Positions 23,604 to 64,000 of a stretch of DNA of 64,000 nt are shown piece after piece. Source of the stretch: Escherichia coli O127:H6 str. E2348/69 (lineage in GTDB: Bacteria > Pseudomonadota > Gammaproteobacteria > Enterobacterales > Enterobacteriaceae); assembly GCF_000026545.1 (NCBI RefSeq), contig NC_011601.1; one strand, given 5' to 3'. The position numbers and the translations under genes are program-made. Positions within the stretch are counted from its first letter, which is position 1; each line of letters begins with the position of its first letter. The notes beneath the pieces were generated by a model. The model ran no database searches. It was given only the letters and a program-made list of their open reading frames with translations, and had not been told where the DNA came from.

Positions 23604-23689
23604 GATATAAAAAAACCCGCCCCTGACAGGCGGGAAGAACGGCAACTAAAACTTTATTCAGTGGCATTTAGATCTATGTCGCATCCGGC

Positions 23690-23880
23690 AATTGGTGCAC
23701 GATGCCTGATGCGACGCTGGCGCGTCTTATCAGGCCTACATTGGTGCCGGATCGGTAGACCGGATAAGGCGTTCACGCCGTATCCGGCATACAGTGCCCG
23801 ATGCGACGCTGCCGCGTCTTATCGGGCCTACAAAAGTTCTGAACCGTAGACCGGATAAGGCGTTCACGCCGCATCCGGCA
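23690..23880. repeat. Cluster of REP (repetitive extragenic palindromic) elements
   Basis: Repeated GCCTGATGCGACGCTGGCGCGTCTTATCAGGCCTAC / CCGGATAAGGCGTTCACGCCGCATCCGGCA units in alternating orientation between fre and fadA. Confidence 0.8.
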
Positions 23881-47149: not shown

Positions 47150-47392
47150 ATAGAGCGAGGACGCTAACAGGAACAATGACTCAGGATGAGGGTCAGGAGC
47201 GCCAGGAGGCGAAGACAGAGGATTGTCAGGAAGATAAACGTCCGGAGACGTAATTAAATGGAAATGGAATCAACACGGATTGTTCCGGCTAATGGAAAAA
47301 CAGGGTGTGTTGGCGGCCTGCAAGGATTGTAAGACCCGTTAAGGGTTATGAGTCAGGAAAAAAGGCGACAGAGTAATCTGTCGCCTTTTTTC
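47150..47392 (+). ncRNA. csrC: CsrC, CsrA-sequestering small RNA
   Basis: Begins ATAGAGCGAGGACGCTAACAGG; multiple GGA-containing motifs (CAGGATG, CAGGAGC, CAGGAGG, CAGGAAG, ACGGA, AAGGA); terminator GGCGACAG-AGTAAT-CTGTCGCC plus T-run; conserved engB-yihI location. Confidence 0.8.
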
Positions 47393-49599: not shown

Positions 49600-49745
<146 letters not shown>

Positions 49746-49986
49746 CCGGCGTAAACAACGAGCTTCAGCTAAACAGCCCTATCATCGCGGCACACAGCAC
49801 GGCAGCAACAGCAGTTTGCGGTGTGTGGCTGTCAACTGCGCCACTCGATACCAGATTAATTATTGATTCCAGCATAATGACTCTCCCCGTTTTCCGGGCA
49901 AGATCATACTGAACTTATAGGAACAGTAAAGCGCAAAATACCAGCAATTTGCGCTCAATAATCAATCTTTACACACAAGCCGTGAA

Positions 49987-56236: not shown

Positions 56237-56254
56237 TTTCGTTTTTTAGTCATA

Positions 56255-56286
56255 AAAAACCTGCCAGCGATGGCAGGTTTTTTTTG
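56255..56286. terminator. Bidirectional rho-independent terminator between typA and the convergent DeoR-type regulator gene
   Basis: AAAAAA-CCTGCCA-GCGA-TGGCAGG-TTTTTTTT. Confidence 0.8.
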
Positions 56287-56342
56287 GCTTATGGAAAACA
56301 AAATCCGCTGAAATTCCCAGCGGATTTTCCGAAGTTTCAATT

Positions 56343-57131
56343 TCAGGATACTTCTTGCTCGGCAACCACCAGTTCAACATTCTCTTCACTTAACAACTGG
56401 CAGAAAGAATTGGGAGGTGGGGCATCAGTAAAAAAAGCCCTGACATTCCGTGCATTGCCAATTGAAACGGCAGCAGACGCGGTAAACTTCGTATGATCGG
56501 CCACTAACAATGTATTCCGCGCATGTTTAATCATCGTTCTCGCGACTAACGCTTCATTGACATCAAATTCCAGCAGGGTGCCGTCATGTTCAATGGCACC
56601 TATACTGGTGATTAAATAATCTGCGCGGAAGCCTTCAATAAAATCCACGGCTCCTGGGCCGATAATCCCACCGTTATGAGCGCGTAAAGTGCCTCCCGGC
56701 ACCATCACTTCAATATCCTGATTCTTATAAAGAATCTGTGCCACACGCAGGCTATTAGTGATAATGCGTAAATCACGCCGGTTGAGTAATGCCCTGGCAA
56801 CGGCTTCTACGGTTGTACCGATGGTGATAAAGACGGTACAGCGTTCGGGAAGGTAATCGGCGACTGCCTCAGCGATCGCCCGTTTCTCGGCGGTGAGCGA
56901 AAGTTCCCGTTGCTCAAAAGCGGTATTCATGACGCTGGAGACGCGCCCGGCCCCTCCATGATGACGGGTGATCAAGCCCTGCTCACTGAGTTTTCGGATA
57001 TCCCGGCGCACGGTTTGCGTTGAAACATCCAGCAGTTGTGCCAGTTCTTCAATATTCATATAACCGCGTTCTGCGATTAGATGAACGAGTTGGTCATGGC
57101 GTGGATTACCTGTCACTGCGATGATACTCAT
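56343..57131 (-). CDS. DeoR-family transcriptional regulator, YihW (CsqR)-like
   Basis: 262-aa ORF; N-terminal DeoR HTH (MNIEELAQLLDVSTQTVRRDIRKL) plus sugar-phosphate-binding domain; my recalled K-12 CsqR sequence aligns closely. Confidence 0.8.
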   Translation of the reverse strand: MSIIAVTGNPRHDQLVHLIAERGYMNIEELAQLLDVSTQTVRRDIRKLSEQGLITRHHGGAGRVSSVMNTAFEQRELSLTAEKRAIAEAVADYLPERCTVFITIGTTVEAVARALLNRRDLRIITNSLRVAQILYKNQDIEVMVPGGTLRAHNGGIIGPGAVDFIEGFRADYLITSIGAIEHDGTLLEFDVNEALVARTMIKHARNTLLVADHTKFTASAAVSIGNARNVRAFFTDAPPPNSFCQLLSEENVELVVAEQEVS

Positions 57132-57170
57132 GAATACTCCCTTGCCCCTCCTCGGTAGATGTTTACCATT

Positions 57171-58067
57171 TTACGCATAAAGTGACAAAAATGATTCGGT
57201 TTGCTCACGATTAGGAATGCCGGCCCGACCGCCAGGCTGGGTACATTTCATCGCGGCAACCGCACTGGCAAAACGAATAGCCTCTTTTGTTGGCATTTTT
57301 TCTGCCAACGCTACCGCGAGTGCGCCGTGAAAAACATCGCCTGCTCCAGTGGTATCAACCACATTGACAGAAAATGCCTCCTGTTGACACAAATGACCAT
57401 CTTCAATCCACAACGATCCTTCAGAACCCAGCGTAACATACACTTTACCTGCTGTTTGTGTCGTTGCCTGGAACAAACCTTCTTCAGGTGACTGCAGGCC
57501 AGTCATGCGTTTCAGCCCTGGTGTTGAGAACACGGCGTGATCGGCAAGCGCGACAAGTGGAGAAATATCCTGCGGTGTCATATCGGCGTCTAAAAGCGTT
57601 GTCACACCCGCAAGGCGCGCTAGCGAGAATGCTTTTTCAGTACCGCTATGCCAGCGAACATCGGCCAGAATCAGATCATAACGAGAGAAATCGATCGCTT
57701 CTAACCATTCGGCATCAGTACCGAGATCAGGACTTGGATAATTAACGATAATCCGTTCGCCATGCTGATCAACGAGGATCGCTGATTGCGACGAACGGGC
57801 GTTAGGATATCGGCGGCAAAATGCGGTATTGACGCCCCAACCCTCAAGTTCTGCAAGTAAGGTATTTCCACAACTGTCATCGCCGACGCGACCGATGAAA
57901 TCAACCTCCACGCCAAGCTTTGCGATTGCAACAGCGGCTGTTGCTGCCGGGCCGCCACCAATCTCAAGATAATGATTTGCCTGATATTTCCCGCCACCCT
58001 CCGGCAGAGTGGGCAAAGAATAAATTCTGTCCTGAACTGTGATACCCACGCATGCAATTCTGGTCAT
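57171..58067 (-). CDS. PfkB-family sugar kinase, YihV (6-deoxy-6-sulfofructose kinase)-like
   Basis: Start at [11 protein letters not shown] (ATG 58067); ribokinase-family DTTGAGD motif; N-terminal extension of the six-frame ORF rejected. Confidence 0.8.
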
Positions 58068-58146
58068 ATTTGTCTTGTCCTGTTTAATTTTGTCGTCTTT
58101 GGTCAATTTAAATGACACAAATGATCAAATTAGTGATGCGTGTCGT

Positions 58147-58181
58147 GTTTTTGAACATAAATTACAAATATGCTCAAAAAC
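58147..58181. promoter_or_regulatory. Imperfect 13-bp inverted repeat GTTTTTGAACATA-N9-TATGCTCAAAAAC in the divergent kinase/reductase promoter region
   Basis: 12 of 13 positions complementary; surrounded by repeated TTTGTC motifs; candidate operator. Confidence 0.35.
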
Positions 58182-58239
58182 AGACGAAAACGAATTTTCA
58201 ATTGTCATTATTTTGTCAATGTCAGACAGGAGAGTATTC

Positions 58240-59118
58240 ATGGCAACCATTGCATTTCTCGGGCTGGGGCAGATGGGTAGCCCAATGGCTAACAATCTAT
58301 TGCAAAAAGGGCATTCATTGCAGGTATTTGATGTCAATACACAGGCCGTCGATGCGCTAGTTACGCAGGGGGCCACTGCGGCACAAACCCCAGCGGAAGC
58401 GGCAGCAAGCGCTGAATTTATCATCACTATGCTTCCCAATGGGGACATTGTTCGACAGGTGCTGTTGGGGGAAAAAGGCGTCTGTGAAACTGTTTCATCT
58501 GACGCGTTATTGATTGATATGTCGACTATTCATCCCTTACAGACCGATGCATTAATACGGGAATTACAAGAAAAAGGCATCAATATGATGGACGCCCCCG
58601 TGGGCAGAACGTCAGTGAATGCGATTGATGGCACATTGCTGATTTTAGCGGGCGGCACTGATGAGCAGATTGCGCGTGCACGCCCGATTCTCATGTGCAT
58701 GGGTAATGAGCTGGTCGAGGCTGGCGGCCCAGGAATGGGGATCCGCGTGAAGCTAATTAACAACTATATGAGCATTGCGCTTAATGCGCTGTCCTCCGAA
58801 GCCGCTGTGTTATGTGAGTCACTGGGATTAAATCTTGATGTCGCAATTAAGGTGATGAGTGGTACGGCAGCAGGGAAAGGACATTTTACGACCACCTGGC
58901 CTGGCAAAGTGCTGAAAGGCGATCTTTCTCCCGCCTTCATGGTGGACCTGGCATTGAAAGATCTGCGTATTGCAGTTGACGTCGCTCGGGAAACGGGGGC
59001 GCCGCTCAATATGGGGATTGCAGCAGAAAGTTATTACGCCGCAGCAAGTCAAGACGGCAAAGGGCGGCAGGACTGGAGCGCCCTGCTAAATCAGGTTCGC
59101 CAGCAGGCTGGTCTTTAA
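58240..59118 (+). CDS. NAD(P)-dependent beta-hydroxyacid dehydrogenase, YihU (3-sulfolactaldehyde reductase)-like
   Basis: Start at [20 protein letters not shown] (Rossmann GLGQMG; ATG 58240 with AGGAGAG Shine-Dalgarno); 3-hydroxyisobutyrate dehydrogenase family. Confidence 0.8.
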
Positions 59119-59142
59119 TTTTATCTATTAACAGGAGTTTCT

Positions 59143-60030
59143 ATGTCATCCCACTTCACCCCATTTACGCTGAAAGATATCTCCCGCCCAGGTGGTGGAT
59201 TCGCCATGTTAGCTGTCGATCAGCGTGAGGCCATGCGCCTGATGTTTGCGGCAGCAGGGCAGCCAAAACCCATCGCCGACAGTGTACTCACCGATTTTAA
59301 AGTTGCCGCGACCCGAATCCTTTCTCCTTATGCTTCTGCCGTTCTGGCGGATAAACAATTTTGTCTTGAACAAATAGTCGAGCAGGGCGCTGTGGCTAAT
59401 TCTTGCGGCCTGATTGTCGCTGCCGATCTTTTTATCCCAGGTAATGGCATCCCGGTTGATAGCGTTGAAATAGATATGTCCGTCGACCCGCATAAAGCCC
59501 GTGAAATGGGGGCTAAGGCAATGAAATTACTTGTACTCTGGCGTGAAGATGAACCCGCAGAGGAACGTCTGGCAATGGTTGATAAATTTGTTCGTCGCTG
59601 CCGTAGTGCCGGGCTGGTTAGCATTATTGAACCTGTGGTGCGTCCACCTCGTCGCGGTTGGGACTTTGATCGTGAAAGCGCCATTGTTGCCGCCGCCGCA
59701 GAGCTTGGTGGAACAGAGGCTGATCTTTACAAAGCCGAGATGCCATTAGGGGGCAAAGGCGATGAAAAAACCTTACTTGCCGCCTGTCAGCAACTTAACG
59801 ATCAGATGAAGATGCCGTGGGTAATTCTTTCTTCTGGCGTTGATGCCGATATTTTTGGCCGTGCAGTAAGTATTGCCATGAAAGGTGGTGCGTCGGGCTT
59901 CCTGGCTGGACGAGCGGTTTGGGCGTCGGTTGTTGGTGCACAAGATCCACAAACCATGCTGCGCGATGTCTCCGTTCCACGCTTGCAACGGCTGGCTGAA
60001 ATTGTCGATGAAGGTATCGCGCAACGCTAA
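59143..60030 (+). CDS. Class I aldolase of the LacD/tagatose-bisphosphate family, YihT (sulfofructose-phosphate aldolase)-like
   Basis: 295-aa ORF ([15 protein letters not shown]...VWASVVG) immediately downstream of the reductase gene. Confidence 0.8.
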
Positions 60031-60062
60031 TCCCCTATGGATATCGATTCTGGAGAATAACA

Positions 60063-61073
60063 ATGGATAAAATTACCCAGGTTTTATTTTCAGATATTGG
60101 GAAAGTCACCACTCAATATGTTGAAGTACCACACCAGCAACTTAAACCGCACGAAGTACGGATTGCGCCCGTGTTCTACGGGATATGCGGTTCGGATCTG
60201 CATGTTCTGAAAGGCGGTCATCCGTTTGCCAAACCGCCTGTCGTCCCCGGTCATGAAATTGCAGCGCGCGTTACGGAAGTGGGCAGCGACGTTAAAAATG
60301 TACAGCCGGGCGATCATGTTGTGGTCGATCCCATCATGGCTTGCATGGAATGCCGAGCCTGCAAAGCAGGACGTTTTAATCTTTGTGAACCACCGCAGGT
60401 TGCTGGTTTTCGCGCACCGGGCTTTGCTCGCTCACAACACATTGTTCCTGCGCGTAATTGCCATGTCGCACCAGCCTCTTTACCGCTAAAAGTGTTGGCC
60501 TTTGCCGAACCGGCGGCTTGTGCTCGTCACTGCGTTAACCGAATGCCGAAAGCTTCTCTGGAAAGCGTACTGGTGATTGGTGCCGGAACGATAGGCTTAT
60601 CCATCGTGCAGGCACTGCGCATTATGGGGGCAGGTAAGATTACCGTGATTGAACCTGACGCTGCCAAACGCGCGCTGGCGTTAAAACTGGGCGCAGCAGA
60701 AGTTTGGGCACCAGGTGAGCTGGCCGCAGATGTGCGATTTACGGGGGCGATTGATGTCGTTGCAGCGCAGGCCACGCTTAACGATGCATGTACCCGTGTA
60801 TATGCCGGAGGCACCGTCGTGTGCATGGGCGTACCAAGTGGGCCGCGTGAAATACCATTACCGATGATGCAACGTTTCGAGCGTGACTTGCTCAACTCTG
60901 GCATGTACATCCCTGAAGATTTCGATGCTGTTATCGAATGGCTGGCGGATGGGCGGTTTGATACCAGTGAACTGGTTACCGATTTATTTGCCATTGAGGA
61001 TGCAGCGGCGGCATTCGAACGCGCGCAGCAAAATGACTCCATAAAGGTCATGCTGCAATTTGCGCCGGAATGA
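60063..61073 (+). CDS. Zinc-dependent medium-chain alcohol/polyol dehydrogenase (sorbitol/threonine dehydrogenase-like)
   Basis: Catalytic-zinc motifs CGSDLH and GHE, structural-zinc cysteine cluster CMECRACKAGRFNLC, NAD-binding GAGTIGL; GGAGAA Shine-Dalgarno. Confidence 0.85.
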   Translation: MDKITQVLFSDIGKVTTQYVEVPHQQLKPHEVRIAPVFYGICGSDLHVLKGGHPFAKPPVVPGHEIAARVTEVGSDVKNVQPGDHVVVDPIMACMECRACKAGRFNLCEPPQVAGFRAPGFARSQHIVPARNCHVAPASLPLKVLAFAEPAACARHCVNRMPKASLESVLVIGAGTIGLSIVQALRIMGAGKITVIEPDAAKRALALKLGAAEVWAPGELAADVRFTGAIDVVAAQATLNDACTRVYAGGTVVCMGVPSGPREIPLPMMQRFERDLLNSGMYIPEDFDAVIEWLADGRFDTSELVTDLFAIEDAAAAFERAQQNDSIKVMLQFAPE

Positions 61074-61142
61074 TTTTCTAAATCTCTGTCTGGCGCTGCG
61101 TCACGTCAGCGCCACCCTACAACAATTAAAAAGGACACTGCG

Positions 61143-62576
61143 ATGAGTCAAATCACCAGTCCTGAAACTTATTCAATTAGTCGGCCACAGGACGTAATTG
61201 ATATTGTTAATAAGAACTCTGCAATCAACACCAGTATCGGCGTTATTTTTATTGCTTTGGGCGGCATATTGATTGATGCCTACCAGGCGGCGATGGTGGG
61301 GTTTGGTAATAAATACATTGCCGCTCAATTCGGCATTTCGCCGGGTCTTGCTGCAACCGTCAATGCATCAGTATTAATCGCCGCGTTAATTGGCGGTTTA
61401 TTAGCGAACCGAGTAATAAACCGCTTTGGGCAAAAGCGGGCATTTATTATTGGCATGGGGCTGTGCACCATCGGTGCTGCAGCGGTAGCTATTGCTCCCA
61501 GTATCTGGTGGGTGCTGGTGTGCCGCGTCATCATGGGCTTTGGTTTAGGCATCGACTTCCCTTTGGCAACCAATGCCGTGGCAGAGCTTCGTGGTTCAAC
61601 GTCGAAGAAAACCGGAACGTCGGTCAACCTCTGGCAAATGGCCTGGTATGTTTCGACAACCGTTGTTTATTTGGTGCTTTTGCCGCTGCTTCTGTCGGGT
61701 ATCGCTGAAGAACAATTGTGGCGTTACGGAATATTCATCGGAGCTATTTTTGCAGTCATCTTCATGATTTTGCGTTACTTCTTTATTGGTGAATCCGCAA
61801 TGTGGGCCGCACGCGTCGGGCGTTACCAGGAAGCGTGCGACATTCTGGGAAAACGTTATGGTGTTCAGGCTCGCGTTGCGGCATCGGGTACAACAGAAGC
61901 GAAATTCTCGGAAAAAGCAGAGAATAAATACAGTGGTGGATATGGCATCTTATTTAATGATCGTTACCGCAAACGCACCATTCTTGGCTGTGTCGTGGCA
62001 ACCATGCAGGCGTGGCAATATAACGCCGTAGGTGTTTATCTTCCTCTTACGTTGGCGGGAATAATAAGTGGCGGGCTTACTGGCGCGTTGACCGGTTCTG
62101 CCGTCGTGAATGCCCTTTGTGGGGTGACAGGCGGGATGATCGGCTCGTTTATTCTCCAACGACTGGGTACTCGCCGACAGTCGATGTATGGATTTGCTGT
62201 TGTGACCTTAGCATTGCTGTCGTTAGGCGCACTGGCAACGACTAATCCCTGGCTGTCTTTAGGGTTATTGGGATCAATTATTTTCTTCCATTCAGCGGGT
62301 CCTGGTGGGCTGGGCATGACCATTGCCACACTCTCTTATCCTCCCGCTATTCGCCCTACTGGGGTCGGATTTGCCCGCGCTATTATGCGCACAGGGGCAA
62401 TTGCAGGACTCATTTTCTGGCCGATGCTGTGGGGTGCGTTGAAAACTGAAGCGTTTTACTGGTTGGCAATCGTGCCATTCCTGGGATTCCTGACCTGTGT
62501 ATTGATTAATTGGGAACCACTGGGTGCAAATGTTGATGCTGAGGACGCAGAGGTTCTGGCTGAATTGAAGAAATAA
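61143..62576 (+). CDS. MFS transporter, sugar-porter-like (12 TM)
   Basis: 477-aa hydrophobic ORF with an MFS-type loop motif (GLLANRVINRFGQKRA). Confidence 0.75.
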   Translation: MSQITSPETYSISRPQDVIDIVNKNSAINTSIGVIFIALGGILIDAYQAAMVGFGNKYIAAQFGISPGLAATVNASVLIAALIGGLLANRVINRFGQKRAFIIGMGLCTIGAAAVAIAPSIWWVLVCRVIMGFGLGIDFPLATNAVAELRGSTSKKTGTSVNLWQMAWYVSTTVVYLVLLPLLLSGIAEEQLWRYGIFIGAIFAVIFMILRYFFIGESAMWAARVGRYQEACDILGKRYGVQARVAASGTTEAKFSEKAENKYSGGYGILFNDRYRKRTILGCVVATMQAWQYNAVGVYLPLTLAGIISGGLTGALTGSAVVNALCGVTGGMIGSFILQRLGTRRQSMYGFAVVTLALLSLGALATTNPWLSLGLLGSIIFFHSAGPGGLGMTIATLSYPPAIRPTGVGFARAIMRTGAIAGLIFWPMLWGALKTEAFYWLAIVPFLGFLTCVLINWEPLGANVDAEDAEVLAELKK

Positions 62577-62610
62577 TTTAATGCGCATCGGTTTAAGCCG
62601 ATGCGCATTA
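62577..62610. other. 14-bp perfect inverted repeat TTAATGCGCATCGG-(6)-CCGATGCGCATTAA between the two transporter genes
   Basis: Read directly; no T-run follows, so not a canonical intrinsic terminator. Confidence 0.5.
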
Positions 62611-62674
62611 ATTCAAACTGCCCACGTTTAGTGGTTCGTATCCCAGATTTCTCGCCTACCAGGAGAGGAAAATT

Positions 62675-64000
62675 ATGTCTGAAAAGTTACCCGCACCGCG
62701 TGAAGGGCTTTCCGGTAAAGCCATGAGACGTGTCGTTATGGGCAGTTTCGCAGGCGCGTTAATGGAATGGTATGACTTCTTTATTTTTGGCACGGCAGCA
62801 GGACTGGTATTTGCACCGCTGTTTTATCCAGACAGCGATCCTTTTATAGGTCTTATAGCTTCCTTTGCGACCTTTGGTGTCGGTTTTCTGACTCGTCCTT
62901 TAGGTGGCATCGTCTTTGGTCATTTTGGCGATAAAATAGGGCGAAAAATAACGCTTATCTGGACGTTGGCTATTGTCGGTTGCTCCACATTTTTGATTGG
63001 TTTTATTCCGACGCATCAGGAAATTGGGATCTGGGCACCGCTCATATTAATGGTGCTACGTTTAATTCAGGGCTTTGGTCTTGGTGGCGAGTACGGCGGA
63101 GCGGCATTGATGACCATAGAATCAGCGCCCGAATCCCGACGCGGATTTTTAGGTTCACTCCCGCAAACGGCTGCGTCTGTGGGTATTATGCTGGCAACCG
63201 GTATTTTTGCTCTCTGTAACCATTTTCTGACTTCGGAGCAGTTTCTCTCCTGGGGATGGCGCATTCCGTTTTGGCTTTCTGCGGTGATGTTGATCGTTGG
63301 GCTGTTTATCCGCCTGCATACCGAAGAAACGCTGGATTTTCAAAAGCAAAAAACGACGAATAATAAAGAAAAGCCCGTTCCTCCGTTGATTGAATTATTC
63401 AAAAAACATCCACGAAATATTTTATTGGCACTGGGTGCGAGGCTGGCGGAAAGTGTCTCCTCTAATATTATTAACGCCTTTGGTATTGTCTATATTTCCA
63501 GCCAATTAGCATTGTCGCGAGATATTCCCCTGACGGGTATGTTGATTGCCTCGGCGATCGGTATTTTCAGTTGTCCATTGGTTGGATGGTTATCAGATCG
63601 TATAGGTCAAAAAAGTCTGTATTTGTCGGGAGCAGGATTTTGTGTCCTGTTCGCGTTTCCTTTCTTCTTATTACTGGATAGCAAAAGTACGCTCATCATC
63701 TGGTGCAGTATGATCCTCGGCTACAACTTAGGTCCGACGATGATGTTTGCCGTGCAGCCAACACTTTTCACCCGCATGTTCGGTACCAAAGTACGATATA
63801 CCGGCCTTTCTTTTGCTTATCAATTTTCCGCGATTCTTGGCGGACTAAGCCCCCTTATCGCCTCAAGTTTGCTGGCGCTAGGGGGAGGAAAACCGTGGTA
63901 TGTCGCTCTGTTTTTATTTGCTGTCTCAGTTCTTTCCTTTGTTTGCGTCTGGCTGATTGAGCCGACCGATGAACAAGAAACCGCTTCTTACTGCTACATC
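62675..64000 (+). CDS. MFS transporter of the metabolite:H+ symporter (MHS) family, 3' end beyond window
   Basis: My own translation from ATG 62675 (AGGAGAGG Shine-Dalgarno) is open to the window end (442 codons); MHS signature GHFGDKIGRK after TM2; not in the supplied ORF track because no stop codon is reached. Confidence 0.75.
   Translation, partial: MSEKLPAPREGLSGKAMRRVVMGSFAGALMEWYDFFIFGTAAGLVFAPLFYPDSDPFIGLIASFATFGVGFLTRPLGGIVFGHFGDKIGRKITLIWTLAIVGCSTFLIGFIPTHQEIGIWAPLILMVLRLIQGFGLGGEYGGAALMTIESAPESRRGFLGSLPQTAASVGIMLATGIFALCNHFLTSEQFLSWGWRIPFWLSAVMLIVGLFIRLHTEETLDFQKQKTTNNKEKPVPPLIELFKKHPRNILLALGARLAESVSSNIINAFGIVYISSQLALSRDIPLTGMLIASAIGIFSCPLVGWLSDRIGQKSLYLSGAGFCVLFAFPFFLLLDSKSTLIIWCSMILGYNLGPTMMFAVQPTLFTRMFGTKVRYTGLSFAYQFSAILGGLSPLIASSLLALGGGKPWYVALFLFAVSVLSFVCVWLIEPTDEQETASYCYI

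What the first reader, a model, noticed from the sequence alone, without database searches (positions are those of the whole stretch)
62577..62674. Perfect 14-bp palindrome between the two transporter genes
TTAATGCGCATCGG-TTTAAG-CCGATGCGCATTAA starts at the stop codon of the first transporter gene. It would form a very stable 14-bp stem, but no U-tract follows, and a separate strong Shine-Dalgarno (AGGAGAGG) precedes the second transporter. It could be a transcript-stabilising or attenuating hairpin that sets differential expression of the two carriers, or a protein-binding site. It does not resemble the REP units elsewhere in the window.
Basis: seen in the sequence. Interest (0 to 1): 0.3.

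Follow-up and report, generated by a model that had tools for sequence, protein, structure and literature searches.

The report
Conserved RNA hairpin between two transporter genes
The palindrome is real and is a single-copy RNA stem-loop, kept by selection right after the first transporter gene of a sugar-catabolism operon in E. coli and its relatives. It most likely acts as an ordinary mRNA-stabilising or weakly attenuating hairpin that lets the two carriers be expressed at different levels.

Summary
TTAATGCGCATCGG / TTTAAG / CCGATGCGCATTAA lies at 62578-62611, two bases after the TAA stop of a 477-aa MFS gene. It folds at -24.2 kcal/mol (z -6.5); shuffled windows contain no such inverted repeat.

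The window is E. coli E2348/69. The hairpin sits in the variant ("short") yih locus. It is not a generic repeat: 1328 of 5426 complete E. coli genomes have it, always at this one locus, and it is absent from viral contigs and Rfam.

Orthologous operons in Citrobacter, Mixta, Trabulsiella and others keep a hairpin at the same place while the sequence drifts. Cells are 83% paired against 25-42% for slid controls, and 8 of 15 pairs show compensatory changes. Imperfections in the stem core are G·U (13) rather than A·C (3). This points to the sense-strand RNA, not a DNA or protein site. More distant genera carry unrelated GC-rich hairpins there. A U-tract is not conserved.

Best reading (inferred, no transcript data): a 3'-exonuclease barrier or weak attenuator that uncouples MFS1 from MFS2 mRNA levels. 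This is a new member of a known kind, of low to moderate interest.

The parts
61143..62576 (+). MFS1, a 477-aa MFS transporter gene (Sugar_tr/MFS_1), with stop TAA at 62574-62576
   Evidence: ORF list. RefSeq annotation 'MFS transporter'. Pfam and NCBIfam matches.
62578..62611 (+). HP1, the reported hairpin: arms 62578-62591 and 62598-62611, loop 62592-62597. It is a conserved sense-strand RNA stem-loop.
   Evidence: Sequence. Folds at -24.2 kcal/mol, z -6.5. Covariation: 83% paired against 25-42% for slid controls, and 8 of 15 pairs compensatory. RNAalifold predicts the 10-bp core independently. G·U 13 against A·C 3 in the core. Single-copy in E. coli.
62612..62647 (+). Mostly single-stranded, A/U-rich spacer. 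It contains a weak 4-bp hairpin HP2 (CCAC 62622-62625 / GUGG 62631-62634) and two matches to the RNase E RN|WUU motif at 62645-62650. Candidate site for endonucleolytic cleavage.
   Evidence: Folds (HP2 -5.2 kcal/mol, z -0.9, not significant alone). RNase E motif as given in PMC5927463; the motif match is my reading of the sequence and could be chance. In Erwinia, Enterobacter and Phytobacter orthologs this position holds a 10-11 bp hairpin followed by UUUUCUC.
62648..62670 (+). HP3 (tentative): a small hairpin that pairs UUUCUC (62648-62653) with GAGGAA (62665-62670) and CCU (62655-62657) with AGG (62661-63). This buries the Shine-Dalgarno sequence of MFS2.
   Evidence: Predicted. 98% of cells paired, with one covarying pair (CCU/AGG <-> CCG/CGG, CCG/UGG). 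Only -8.1 kcal/mol, z -1.2 on its own, so the conservation may simply be that of the ribosome-binding site.
62661..62668 (+). Shine-Dalgarno AGGAGAGG of MFS2
   Evidence: Sequence. GGAGAGG is invariant or nearly so in 17 orthologs.
62675..64000 (+). MFS2, a metabolite:H+ symporter (MHS, ShiA-like) gene. It is cut by the window end; the full gene encodes 449 aa.
   Evidence: (TIGR00883 metabolite/H+ symporter, 404 bits).
61091..61114 (+). A second conserved intercistronic hairpin (UGGCGCUG-CGUCACGU-CAGCGCCA) between the Zn-ADH gene and MFS1. MFS1 is therefore bracketed by two conserved stem-loops.
   Evidence: It is present at the same place with changed stem sequences in Citrobacter, Mixta, the Erwinia/Enterobacter group and Trabulsiella. 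It also lacks a U-tract.

Best explanation
HP1 is a cis-acting RNA stem-loop in the polycistronic mRNA of the variant yih operon (yihU-like reductase, aldolase, Zn-ADH, MFS1, MFS2, epimerase). It forms once the ribosome has left the MFS1 stop codon. The proposed mechanism runs as follows. The 98-nt untranslated spacer, or the less well translated MFS2 segment, is cut by an endonuclease, probably RNase E in the A/U-rich single-stranded stretch 3' of the hairpin. The downstream MFS2-epimerase part is then degraded. The -24 kcal/mol hairpin stops 3'->5' exonucleases (PNPase, RNase II). The MFS1-containing segment therefore outlives the rest, and MFS1 is made in excess of MFS2. Some transcription termination or pausing at the hairpin may add to the same polarity. 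What is shown: the hairpin exists, is single-copy, and is under purifying selection as a sense-strand RNA structure across genera. What is inferred: the cleavage, the exonuclease block and the direction of the expression difference.
For: 1. Stability and position. HP1 folds at -24.2 kcal/mol and starts 2 nt after the stop. This is the longest intergenic gap of the operon, at 98 nt against 24-69 nt elsewhere. No promoter-like site lies in the gap.
2. Selection on structure. Across 17 orthologous spacers, cells are 83% paired against 25-42% for slid controls, 8 of 15 pairs are compensatory, and 0 of 500 shuffles reach the covariation score. RNAalifold recovers the core without using the E. coli fold. 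Four-fold degenerate sites of MFS1 are saturated between E. coli and Citrobacter (34-43% identical). The hairpin core stays 60-90% identical, with 8-10 of 10 pairs kept.
3. Strand. There are 13 G·U against 3 A·C cells in the core, and the A·C cells come from one lineage and one pair.
4. Position over sequence. Nineteen of 22 loci where MFS2 follows MFS1 have a GC-rich hairpin shortly after the MFS1 stop. This includes non-homologous hairpins in Leminorella, Budvicia, Edaphovirga, Vibrio and Succinivibrionaceae. Where HP1 is weak (-9 kcal/mol in Erwinia, Enterobacter and Phytobacter), the next hairpin is strong (-18 kcal/mol), so one strong hairpin per spacer is kept.
5. The U-tract is not conserved: 1-5 U of 8, median 3. 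Selection is therefore on the hairpin, not on a canonical terminator.
6. Within E. coli, at least 1326 of 1328 genomes carry one of three alleles that differ only in the loop and one flanking base. The arms are identical in all three.
7. A second conserved hairpin without a U-tract precedes MFS1.
8. The mechanism is established for malEFG and for many E. coli operons, with conserved protective 3' structures (PMC5927463).
Against: There are no transcript, 3'-end or half-life data for this locus. The cassette was not induced under the only conditions tested in a strain that carries it (Nissle 1917 on sulfoquinovose or glucose, PMC12608037). Co-transcription of MFS1 and MFS2 is inferred only from gene order, the short gap and the lack of a predicted promoter. 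Some orthologs have a fair U-run after the stem, for example UUUUUCGU in metagenomic Citrobacter-like loci and ACUUUUUCC in Vibrio, which fits termination as well. Three orthologous loci with 15-19 nt spacers have no hairpin at all. Comparative data cannot distinguish an exonuclease barrier from other roles that only need a stable hairpin.
Confidence: 0.5

Rival explanations
1. HP1 is a leaky intrinsic (Rho-independent) terminator or attenuator. A fraction of RNA polymerases stop just after HP1, so MFS2-epimerase is transcribed less than MFS1. The ribosome terminating 2 nt upstream modulates hairpin formation.
For: HP1 has a GC-rich 10-bp core directly after a stop codon. If the weak A-U base of the stem is counted as tail, the tail reads UUAAUU. 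Several orthologs have better U-runs, such as UUUUUCGU, UUUCUCAU and ACUUUUUCC. In Erwinia, Enterobacter and Phytobacter the spacer holds a 10-11 bp hairpin followed by UUUUCUC. Internal terminators that set transporter stoichiometry are known (PMC9045158, listed).
Against: The E. coli + strand tail has 3 U of 8 and is not called by the terminator scan. U content after the stem is not conserved across orthologs (1-5 of 8), while the stem is.
Confidence: 0.2
2. HP1 is a recognition or processing site for an RNA-binding factor. This could be RNase III cleavage of the 14-16 bp duplex, or binding of a 3'-hairpin-binding protein such as ProQ. Either would separate the two halves of the operon mRNA.
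For: The duplex is long and perfect in Escherichia, at 14-16 bp. GCGC/GCGC and CG/CG positions are invariant in all 17 homologous sequences, so some sequence is conserved as well as structure.
Against: The stems in Citrobacter and Mixta are only 9-13 bp, and distant orthologs use unrelated sequences. This argues against sequence-specific recognition. 14-16 bp is short for RNase III (my own knowledge, not tested).
Confidence: 0.1
3. HP1 has no present function. It is a relic of an ancestral operon-end terminator, kept perfect in Escherichia by DNA-level templated mutation within the palindrome (quasi-palindrome correction or loop flipping).
For: The Escherichia stems are perfectly Watson-Crick. 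One rare allele (20 genomes) is a spacer-less perfect 34-bp palindrome. The two main alleles differ by what looks like a flip of the loop, CTTAAA against its reverse complement TTTAAG.
Against: The core is far more conserved than saturated synonymous sites. The strand-asymmetric excess of G·U in other genera is not expected from DNA-level correction. Unrelated hairpins sit at the same position in distant genera. The whole 98-nt spacer differs at 8% between E. coli and Escherichia sp. MOD1, against 24% at four-fold sites.
Confidence: 0.08
4. HP1 is a DNA palindrome bound by a dimeric regulator, for example the locus's DeoR/YihW-type repressor acting as an internal operator or roadblock. Alternatively it is a terminator for antisense transcription, since the minus strand reads hairpin + AUUAUUUCUU.
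For: It is a perfect palindrome that contains two copies of the 8-bp palindrome ATGCGCAT. The minus strand is called terminator-like.
Against: Stem imperfections are G·U on the + strand. These would be A·C mismatches on the minus strand and asymmetric half-sites in DNA. The half-site sequence changes freely among genera. HP1 is unlike the inverted repeat in the divergent promoter region, 58146-58182, which is the likely YihW operator. The minus-strand U-run is the reverse complement of the conserved C-terminal Lys codons plus TAA, and it is not kept in distant orthologs. No minus-strand gene lies within 5 kb downstream.
Confidence: 0.05

Closest known systems
Protective 3' stem-loops of differentially decaying operons (malE-malF intercistronic structure; the set mapped by Dar & Sorek 2018, PMC5927463)
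   Same: A stable stem-loop without a canonical U-tract at the boundary between two cistrons of one operon, conserved in related species. It is expected to block PNPase and RNase II after a downstream RNase E cut.
   Different: The malE-malF element is a REP/BIME repeat present in hundreds of copies, whereas HP1 is unique to this locus. Most structures in PMC5927463 lie inside the downstream coding region, whereas HP1 is intergenic and starts 2 nt after the stop. No decay or 3'-end data exist for HP1.
Rho-independent (intrinsic) terminators / internal operon attenuators
   Same: A GC-rich hairpin immediately after a stop codon. Some orthologs have a U-rich tail.
   Different: The E. coli tail is UUCAAACU and is not called by the scan. 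The U-tract is not conserved while the stem is.
REP / BIME (palindromic unit) elements of E. coli
   Same: An intergenic GC-rich imperfect or perfect palindrome in an operon. It shares the short string GCATC(C)GG with REP arms (my reading).
   Different: HP1 is single-copy in all 1328 genomes that carry it. It does not match the REP core at up to 2 mismatches. There is no flanking GTAG/CTAC tetranucleotide.
papBA-type and pufBALMX-type intercistronic hairpins (as summarised in PMC5927463)
   Same: Hairpins flank a cistron that is selectively stabilised. Here MFS1 is bracketed by conserved hairpins at 61091-61114 and 62578-62611.
   Different: This is an analogy only. No cleavage sites or half-lives are known for this operon.

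Membership tests
REP/BIME repeat family | Many dispersed copies per genome | tested here: not met
   A 42-nt query with word size 11 and E<=10 gave exactly one locus per genome in 1328 genomes. The two 'places' are the two strands of the palindrome itself.
REP/BIME repeat family | Similarity to the REP consensus core (GCCGGATGCGGCG) and a flanking GTAG/CTAC | tested here: not met
   Fifteen REP-core matches in the window, none at 62578-62611. No GTAG/CTAC next to the stem.
Intrinsic terminator | Stable GC-rich stem-loop | tested here: met
   -24.2 kcal/mol, 14-15 bp with 7 G-C pairs.
Intrinsic terminator | U-tract (at least 5 U in 8) directly 3' of the stem on the transcribed strand | tested here: not met
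   The + strand tail UUCAAACU has 3 of 8 and is not called by the scan. Orthologs range from 1 to 5 of 8.
Intrinsic terminator | Transcript 3' ends generated by RNA polymerase release at the site | not testable with these tools
   Needs Term-seq or in vitro transcription.
Protective 3' structure of a differentially decaying operon | Stable structure at a cistron boundary inside one transcription unit | tested here: met
   It lies between co-oriented MFS1 and MFS2, with a 98-nt gap and no promoter-like site. Co-transcription itself is inferred.
Protective 3' structure of a differentially decaying operon | Structure conserved in orthologous operons | tested here: met
Protective 3' structure of a differentially decaying operon | Stable processed 3' end at the hairpin base and a longer half-life of the upstream segment | not testable with these tools
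   Needs Term-seq plus rifampicin decay RNA-seq under inducing conditions.
Any Rfam family | Covariance-model match | tested here: not met
   No match with E<=10 in 61000-64000 on either strand.
Transcription-factor operator (DNA palindrome) | Strand-symmetric conservation of half-sites | tested here: not met
   Imperfections are G·U on the + strand (13) rather than A·C (3). Half-site sequences change among genera while pairing is kept.
RNase III substrate | Roughly two helical turns of dsRNA, and cleavage in vivo | tested here: inconclusive
   The stem is 14-16 bp in Escherichia and 9-13 bp in Citrobacter and Mixta. Cleavage cannot be tested here.

The most novel reading that the evidence does not exclude
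The whole 98-nt MFS1-MFS2 spacer, together with the hairpin upstream of MFS1, may be an undescribed conserved cis-regulatory RNA module. The spacer comprises HP1, HP2 and the Shine-Dalgarno-sequestering HP3. HP1 and HP2 would set the fate of the transcript. HP3 would gate translation of the second carrier and the epimerase in response to a signal such as temperature, a metabolite, or translation of MFS1. This would be a regulated switch between two carriers of an operon whose substrate is still unknown. The evidence does not exclude it: the spacer evolves three times more slowly than synonymous sites, HP3 has one covarying pair, and nothing matches in Rfam.
Probability: 0.1. Interest if true: 0.5.

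Novelty: new member of a known kind. Interest (0 to 1): 0.25.

Why it matters
As a single element it matters little. Intercistronic hairpins that uncouple the mRNA levels of neighbouring cistrons are a well-known device.

Three points are still useful.
1. It is a clean, covariation-supported example of such a hairpin that is not a REP repeat. It lies in an accessory operon of B2 and ExPEC/EPEC E. coli and of the probiotic Nissle 1917.
2. It shows that the 'short yih cassette' is part of a widely conserved eight-gene operon with internal post-transcriptional architecture. MFS1 is bracketed by two conserved hairpins. This argues that the cluster is functional rather than a truncated remnant.
3. 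It predicts that the two carriers are needed in unequal amounts, for example an importer and a product exporter. That may help when the substrate of this operon is sought.

Tried and rejected
- Generic repeat or mobile-element remnant: rejected. The element sits at one locus per genome in 1328 of 5426 E. coli genomes, there is no exact match in viral contigs, and there is no REP-core match.
- Known RNA family: no Rfam hit with E<=10.
- Small ORFs in the spacer: rejected. These are the 41-codon ORF 62601-62726 and a 16-codon ORF starting at the ATG in the 5' arm. Neither has a ribosome-binding site, both start inside the stem, and the ATGs are not conserved in Citrobacter.
- Internal promoter for MFS2: none predicted in 62000-62675.
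- Minus-strand terminator: one search calls one, but the U-run is the reverse complement of the conserved Lys codons plus TAA. It is lost in distant orthologs, and the wobble asymmetry points to the other strand.
- Integron attC or recombination site: considered from the sequence only. The loop region GTTTAAG does not fit GTTRRRY (recalled from memory), and there is a single copy. Not pursued.
- YihW/CsqR operator: the two papers read give no DNA motif. The likely operator repeat at 58146-58182 is unlike HP1.
- HP2 and HP3 as independent findings: their folding energies are not significant on their own, so they are reported as tentative.
- Metagenome scan with the conserved ribosome-binding-site pattern: it gave only 5 loci and 3 new spacer variants. 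These were used in the alignment but added little.
- Two of the 1328 E. coli genomes carry rarer alleles with 1-2 extra mismatches in the 42-nt query. I could not list them.

Full report
**Observation**

The window matches E. coli O127:H6 E2348/69 at 100% identity. The reported sequence is present exactly as described.
- The MFS1 gene runs 61143-62576 and ends with TAA at 62574-62576.
- T62577 is unpaired.
- The arms are 62578-62591 (TTAATGCGCATCGG) and 62598-62611 (CCGATGCGCATTAA), with loop TTTAAG between them.
- AGGAGAGG lies at 62661-62668.
- The MFS2 ATG is at 62675.

As RNA the 42-nt segment folds at -24.2 kcal/mol (z -6.5; 0 of 200 shuffles fold as well). A U·G pair closes a UUAA tetraloop. 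Only one other hairpin in the 64-kb window has perfect arms of this length, at 47357-47392. Shuffled windows have none. The + strand tail UUCAAACU is not a U-tract and the scan does not call a + strand terminator. It does call the minus strand, whose tail is AUUAUUUCUU. The only correction is that the stem starts 2 nt after the stop codon, not at it.

**Context**

The locus lies between typA and yihX. It holds:
- a DeoR-type regulator and a sugar kinase on one strand;
- on the other strand, a YihU-like reductase, an aldolase, a Zn-dependent dehydrogenase, MFS1 (477 aa), MFS2 (449 aa, MHS/ShiA-like) and an aldose 1-epimerase.

This is the 'short yih cassette' of Kaznadzey et al. 2025 (PMC12608037). 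They describe it as yihTUVW. They found it in Nissle 1917 and many pathogenic strains, and it was not induced by sulfoquinovose. They do not mention the hairpin. The 98-nt MFS1-MFS2 gap is the longest in the operon, and no promoter-like site is predicted in it.

**Is it a generic repeat?**

No. A 42-nt query (blastn, word 11, E<=10) hits 1328 of 5426 complete E. coli genomes, each with exactly two 'places'. Those two places are the two strands of the palindrome at one position. The element has no exact match in viral contigs and no Rfam match. It does not match the REP core that marks the REP clusters near 23.7 and 49.7 kb.

**Variation within E. coli**

Three alleles account for at least 1326 of the 1328 genomes.

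| Allele | Genomes | Base 62577 | Loop | Stem |
|---|---|---|---|---|
| E2348 type | 865 | T | TTTAAG | 14 bp, plus a possible U·G closing pair |
| CREC-591 type | about 441 | A | CTTAAA | 16 bp, reaching into the stop codon |
| Tig207 type | 20 | T | CTTAAG | perfect 34-bp palindrome with no spacer |

All differences lie in the loop or in the flanking base. The 14-nt arms are identical in all three. The E2348 loop is the reverse complement of the CREC/MOD1 loop. The two main alleles may therefore differ by a flip of the loop rather than by two point mutations. This also explains the 441 extra megablast places.

**Comparison across species**

A scan of one genome per species with MFS1 returned 28 loci. 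The eight-gene cluster is conserved in order in Citrobacter, Mixta, Erwinia typographi, Enterobacter sp. 10-1, Phytobacter, Trabulsiella, Leminorella, Budvicia, Edaphovirga, Vibrio rhodolitus, a Succinivibrionaceae MAG and Sutterella. It is rearranged in Alphaproteobacteria and others.

MFS2 directly follows MFS1 in 22 loci.
- Nineteen have a GC-rich hairpin shortly after the MFS1 stop.
- Three have spacers of only 15-19 nt and no hairpin.

I aligned 17 homologous spacers, including three new variants from a metagenome pattern scan. On this alignment the E. coli stem gave the following results:
- 83% of cells are paired, against 25-42% when partners are slid by 1-3 columns.
- Eight of 15 pairs have changes on both sides. 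Pair 10-35 is AU 6, UA 4, CG 2, GC 1, GU 1. Pair 15-30 is GC 9, AU 4, GU 1.
- 0 of 500 shuffles reach the observed covariation score.

RNAalifold, which does not use the E. coli fold, predicts the same 10-bp core. Escherichia sp. MOD1-EC7003 shows a clean A-U to C-G double change.

Four-fold degenerate sites of MFS1 are only 34-43% identical between E. coli and Citrobacter or Mixta, which is saturation. The 20 core nucleotides are 60-90% identical, with 8-10 of 10 pairs kept. Against MOD1, four-fold sites differ at 24%, while the 28 arm nucleotides show two changes that compensate each other.

**Which strand and which molecule?**

In the 10-pair core the non-Watson-Crick cells are 13 G·U or U·G against 3 A·C. 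The three A·C cells come from one pair in the Erwinia/Enterobacter/Phytobacter lineage, next to an alignment gap. The G·U cells are spread over six pairs and several lineages. G·U on the + strand would be A·C on the minus strand, and an asymmetric half-site in DNA. Selection therefore acts on the sense-strand RNA. It does not act on a DNA palindrome, a protein operator or an antisense terminator.

The minus-strand 'U-tract' is the reverse complement of the conserved C-terminal Lys codons plus TAA. It is not kept in distant orthologs.

**What the hairpin does**

The U content of the 8 nt after the stem ranges from 1 to 5 across orthologs, with a median of 3. Only two loci reach the usual threshold. 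The conserved feature is therefore a strong hairpin, not a canonical terminator.

Where HP1 is weak (-9 kcal/mol in Erwinia, Enterobacter and Phytobacter), the next hairpin in the spacer is strong: 10-11 bp, -18 kcal/mol, followed by UUUUCUC. Where HP1 is strong, that second hairpin is a 4-bp remnant. One strong hairpin per spacer seems to be what is kept.

A second conserved hairpin without a U-tract lies between the dehydrogenase gene and MFS1, at 61091-61114. Its stem sequence changes among genera. MFS1 is thus bracketed by stem-loops. The operon ends after the epimerase gene with a strong hairpin that looks like a real terminator.

This anatomy fits the differential-decay model established for malEFG and generalised by Dar & Sorek (PMC5927463). 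In that model an endonuclease cuts in the less protected downstream part, 3' exonucleases remove it, and a stable 3' structure protects the upstream cistron.

Two further points are my own reading.
- The stretch 3' of HP1 is A/U-rich and single-stranded, and it contains RN|WUU-like strings at 62645-62650. These could be chance matches.
- A ribosome terminating at 62574-62576 should cover about the first 9-10 nt after the stop. HP1 could then form only after ribosome release. This rests on general knowledge and was not tested here.

I rate the stabiliser reading at about 0.5. The rivals are a leaky terminator or attenuator at 0.2, an RNase III or protein recognition site at 0.1, a functionless relic kept perfect by templated mutation at 0.08, and a DNA-level or antisense role at 0.05.

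**Other structure in the spacer**

HP3 pairs 62648-62653 with 62665-62670 and 62655-62657 with 62661-62663, which would bury the MFS2 Shine-Dalgarno sequence. It is predicted in every homolog, with 98% of cells paired, and it has one covarying pair. It is only -8.1 kcal/mol (z -1.2) on its own, so its conservation may be that of the ribosome-binding site. I treat it as tentative. If real, low translation of MFS2 would reinforce the decay polarity proposed above.

**Comparison with known kinds, and verdict**

The element works like the protective 3' stem-loops of differentially decaying operons, or like an internal attenuator.
- It is not a REP/BIME element. It is single-copy, has no core match and has no GTAG/CTAC.
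- It is not a canonical intrinsic terminator, because it lacks a U-tract.
- It is not in Rfam.

It is a new member of a known kind. The finding is real and well supported as a selected RNA structure, but its biology is ordinary. Interest is 0.25.

The most novel reading still open is that the whole spacer is a regulated RNA switch controlling the second carrier (probability about 0.1).

Noticed in passing
window 61091-61114: A second conserved intercistronic hairpin (UGGCGCUG-CGUCACGU-CAGCGCCA, -13.3 kcal/mol) lies between the Zn-dehydrogenase gene and MFS1. Its stem sequence changes among Citrobacter, Mixta, the Erwinia/Enterobacter group and Trabulsiella, and the conserved string CCCUACAACAA follows it. 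MFS1 is bracketed by two hairpins.
   Followed up: partly
window 56300-64000 and loci L004-L031: The 'short yih cassette' (yihTUVW in PMC12608037) is part of an eight-gene cluster: DeoR regulator, kinase | YihU-like reductase, aldolase, Zn-ADH, MFS1, MFS2, aldose 1-epimerase. The gene order is conserved from Escherichia and Citrobacter to Vibrio, Succinivibrionaceae and Sutterella, and is rearranged in Alphaproteobacteria and a Propionibacteriaceae MAG. The paper reports no induction by sulfoquinovose, so the substrate appears to be unknown.
   Followed up: partly
window 62592-62597; L002:4019-4024: The two main E. coli alleles have loops TTTAAG and CTTAAA, which are reverse complements of each other. 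The difference looks like a flip of the hairpin loop. The alternative is two point changes through the rare perfect-palindrome allele CTTAAG, found in 20 genomes.
   Followed up: partly
L009:7470-7500, L027:7470-7500, L029:7470-7500: In Erwinia typographi, Enterobacter sp. 10-1 and Phytobacter the MFS1-MFS2 spacer has a weak first hairpin. It also has a 10-11 bp second hairpin (CUGUGGGUGAA...UUCACCCACAG) followed by UUUUCUC. This looks like an internal intrinsic terminator abutting the Shine-Dalgarno hairpin.
   Followed up: partly
window 58146-58182: A 14-nt inverted repeat, TGTTTTTGAACATA-N9-TATGCTCAAAAACA, lies in the divergent region between the kinase gene and the yihU-like gene. It is a likely operator of the DeoR/YihW-type repressor.
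   Followed up: no
window 47357-47392 and 56248-56289: Two strong hairpins with A-runs and U-runs on both sides: GAAAAAAGGCGACAGA/TCTGTCGCCTTTTTTC with perfect 16-nt arms, and AGTCATAAAAAACCTGCCA/TGGCAGGTTTTTTTTGGCT. They look like bidirectional or ordinary intrinsic terminators.
   Followed up: no
window 23677-23879 and 49658-49750: Clusters of REP (palindromic unit) copies.
   Followed up: no
L001:11911-11955: After the epimerase gene, outside the window, a 13-bp hairpin UUGCGAAAAAGC...GCUUUUUCGCAA probably marks the end of the operon before yihX.
   Followed up: no
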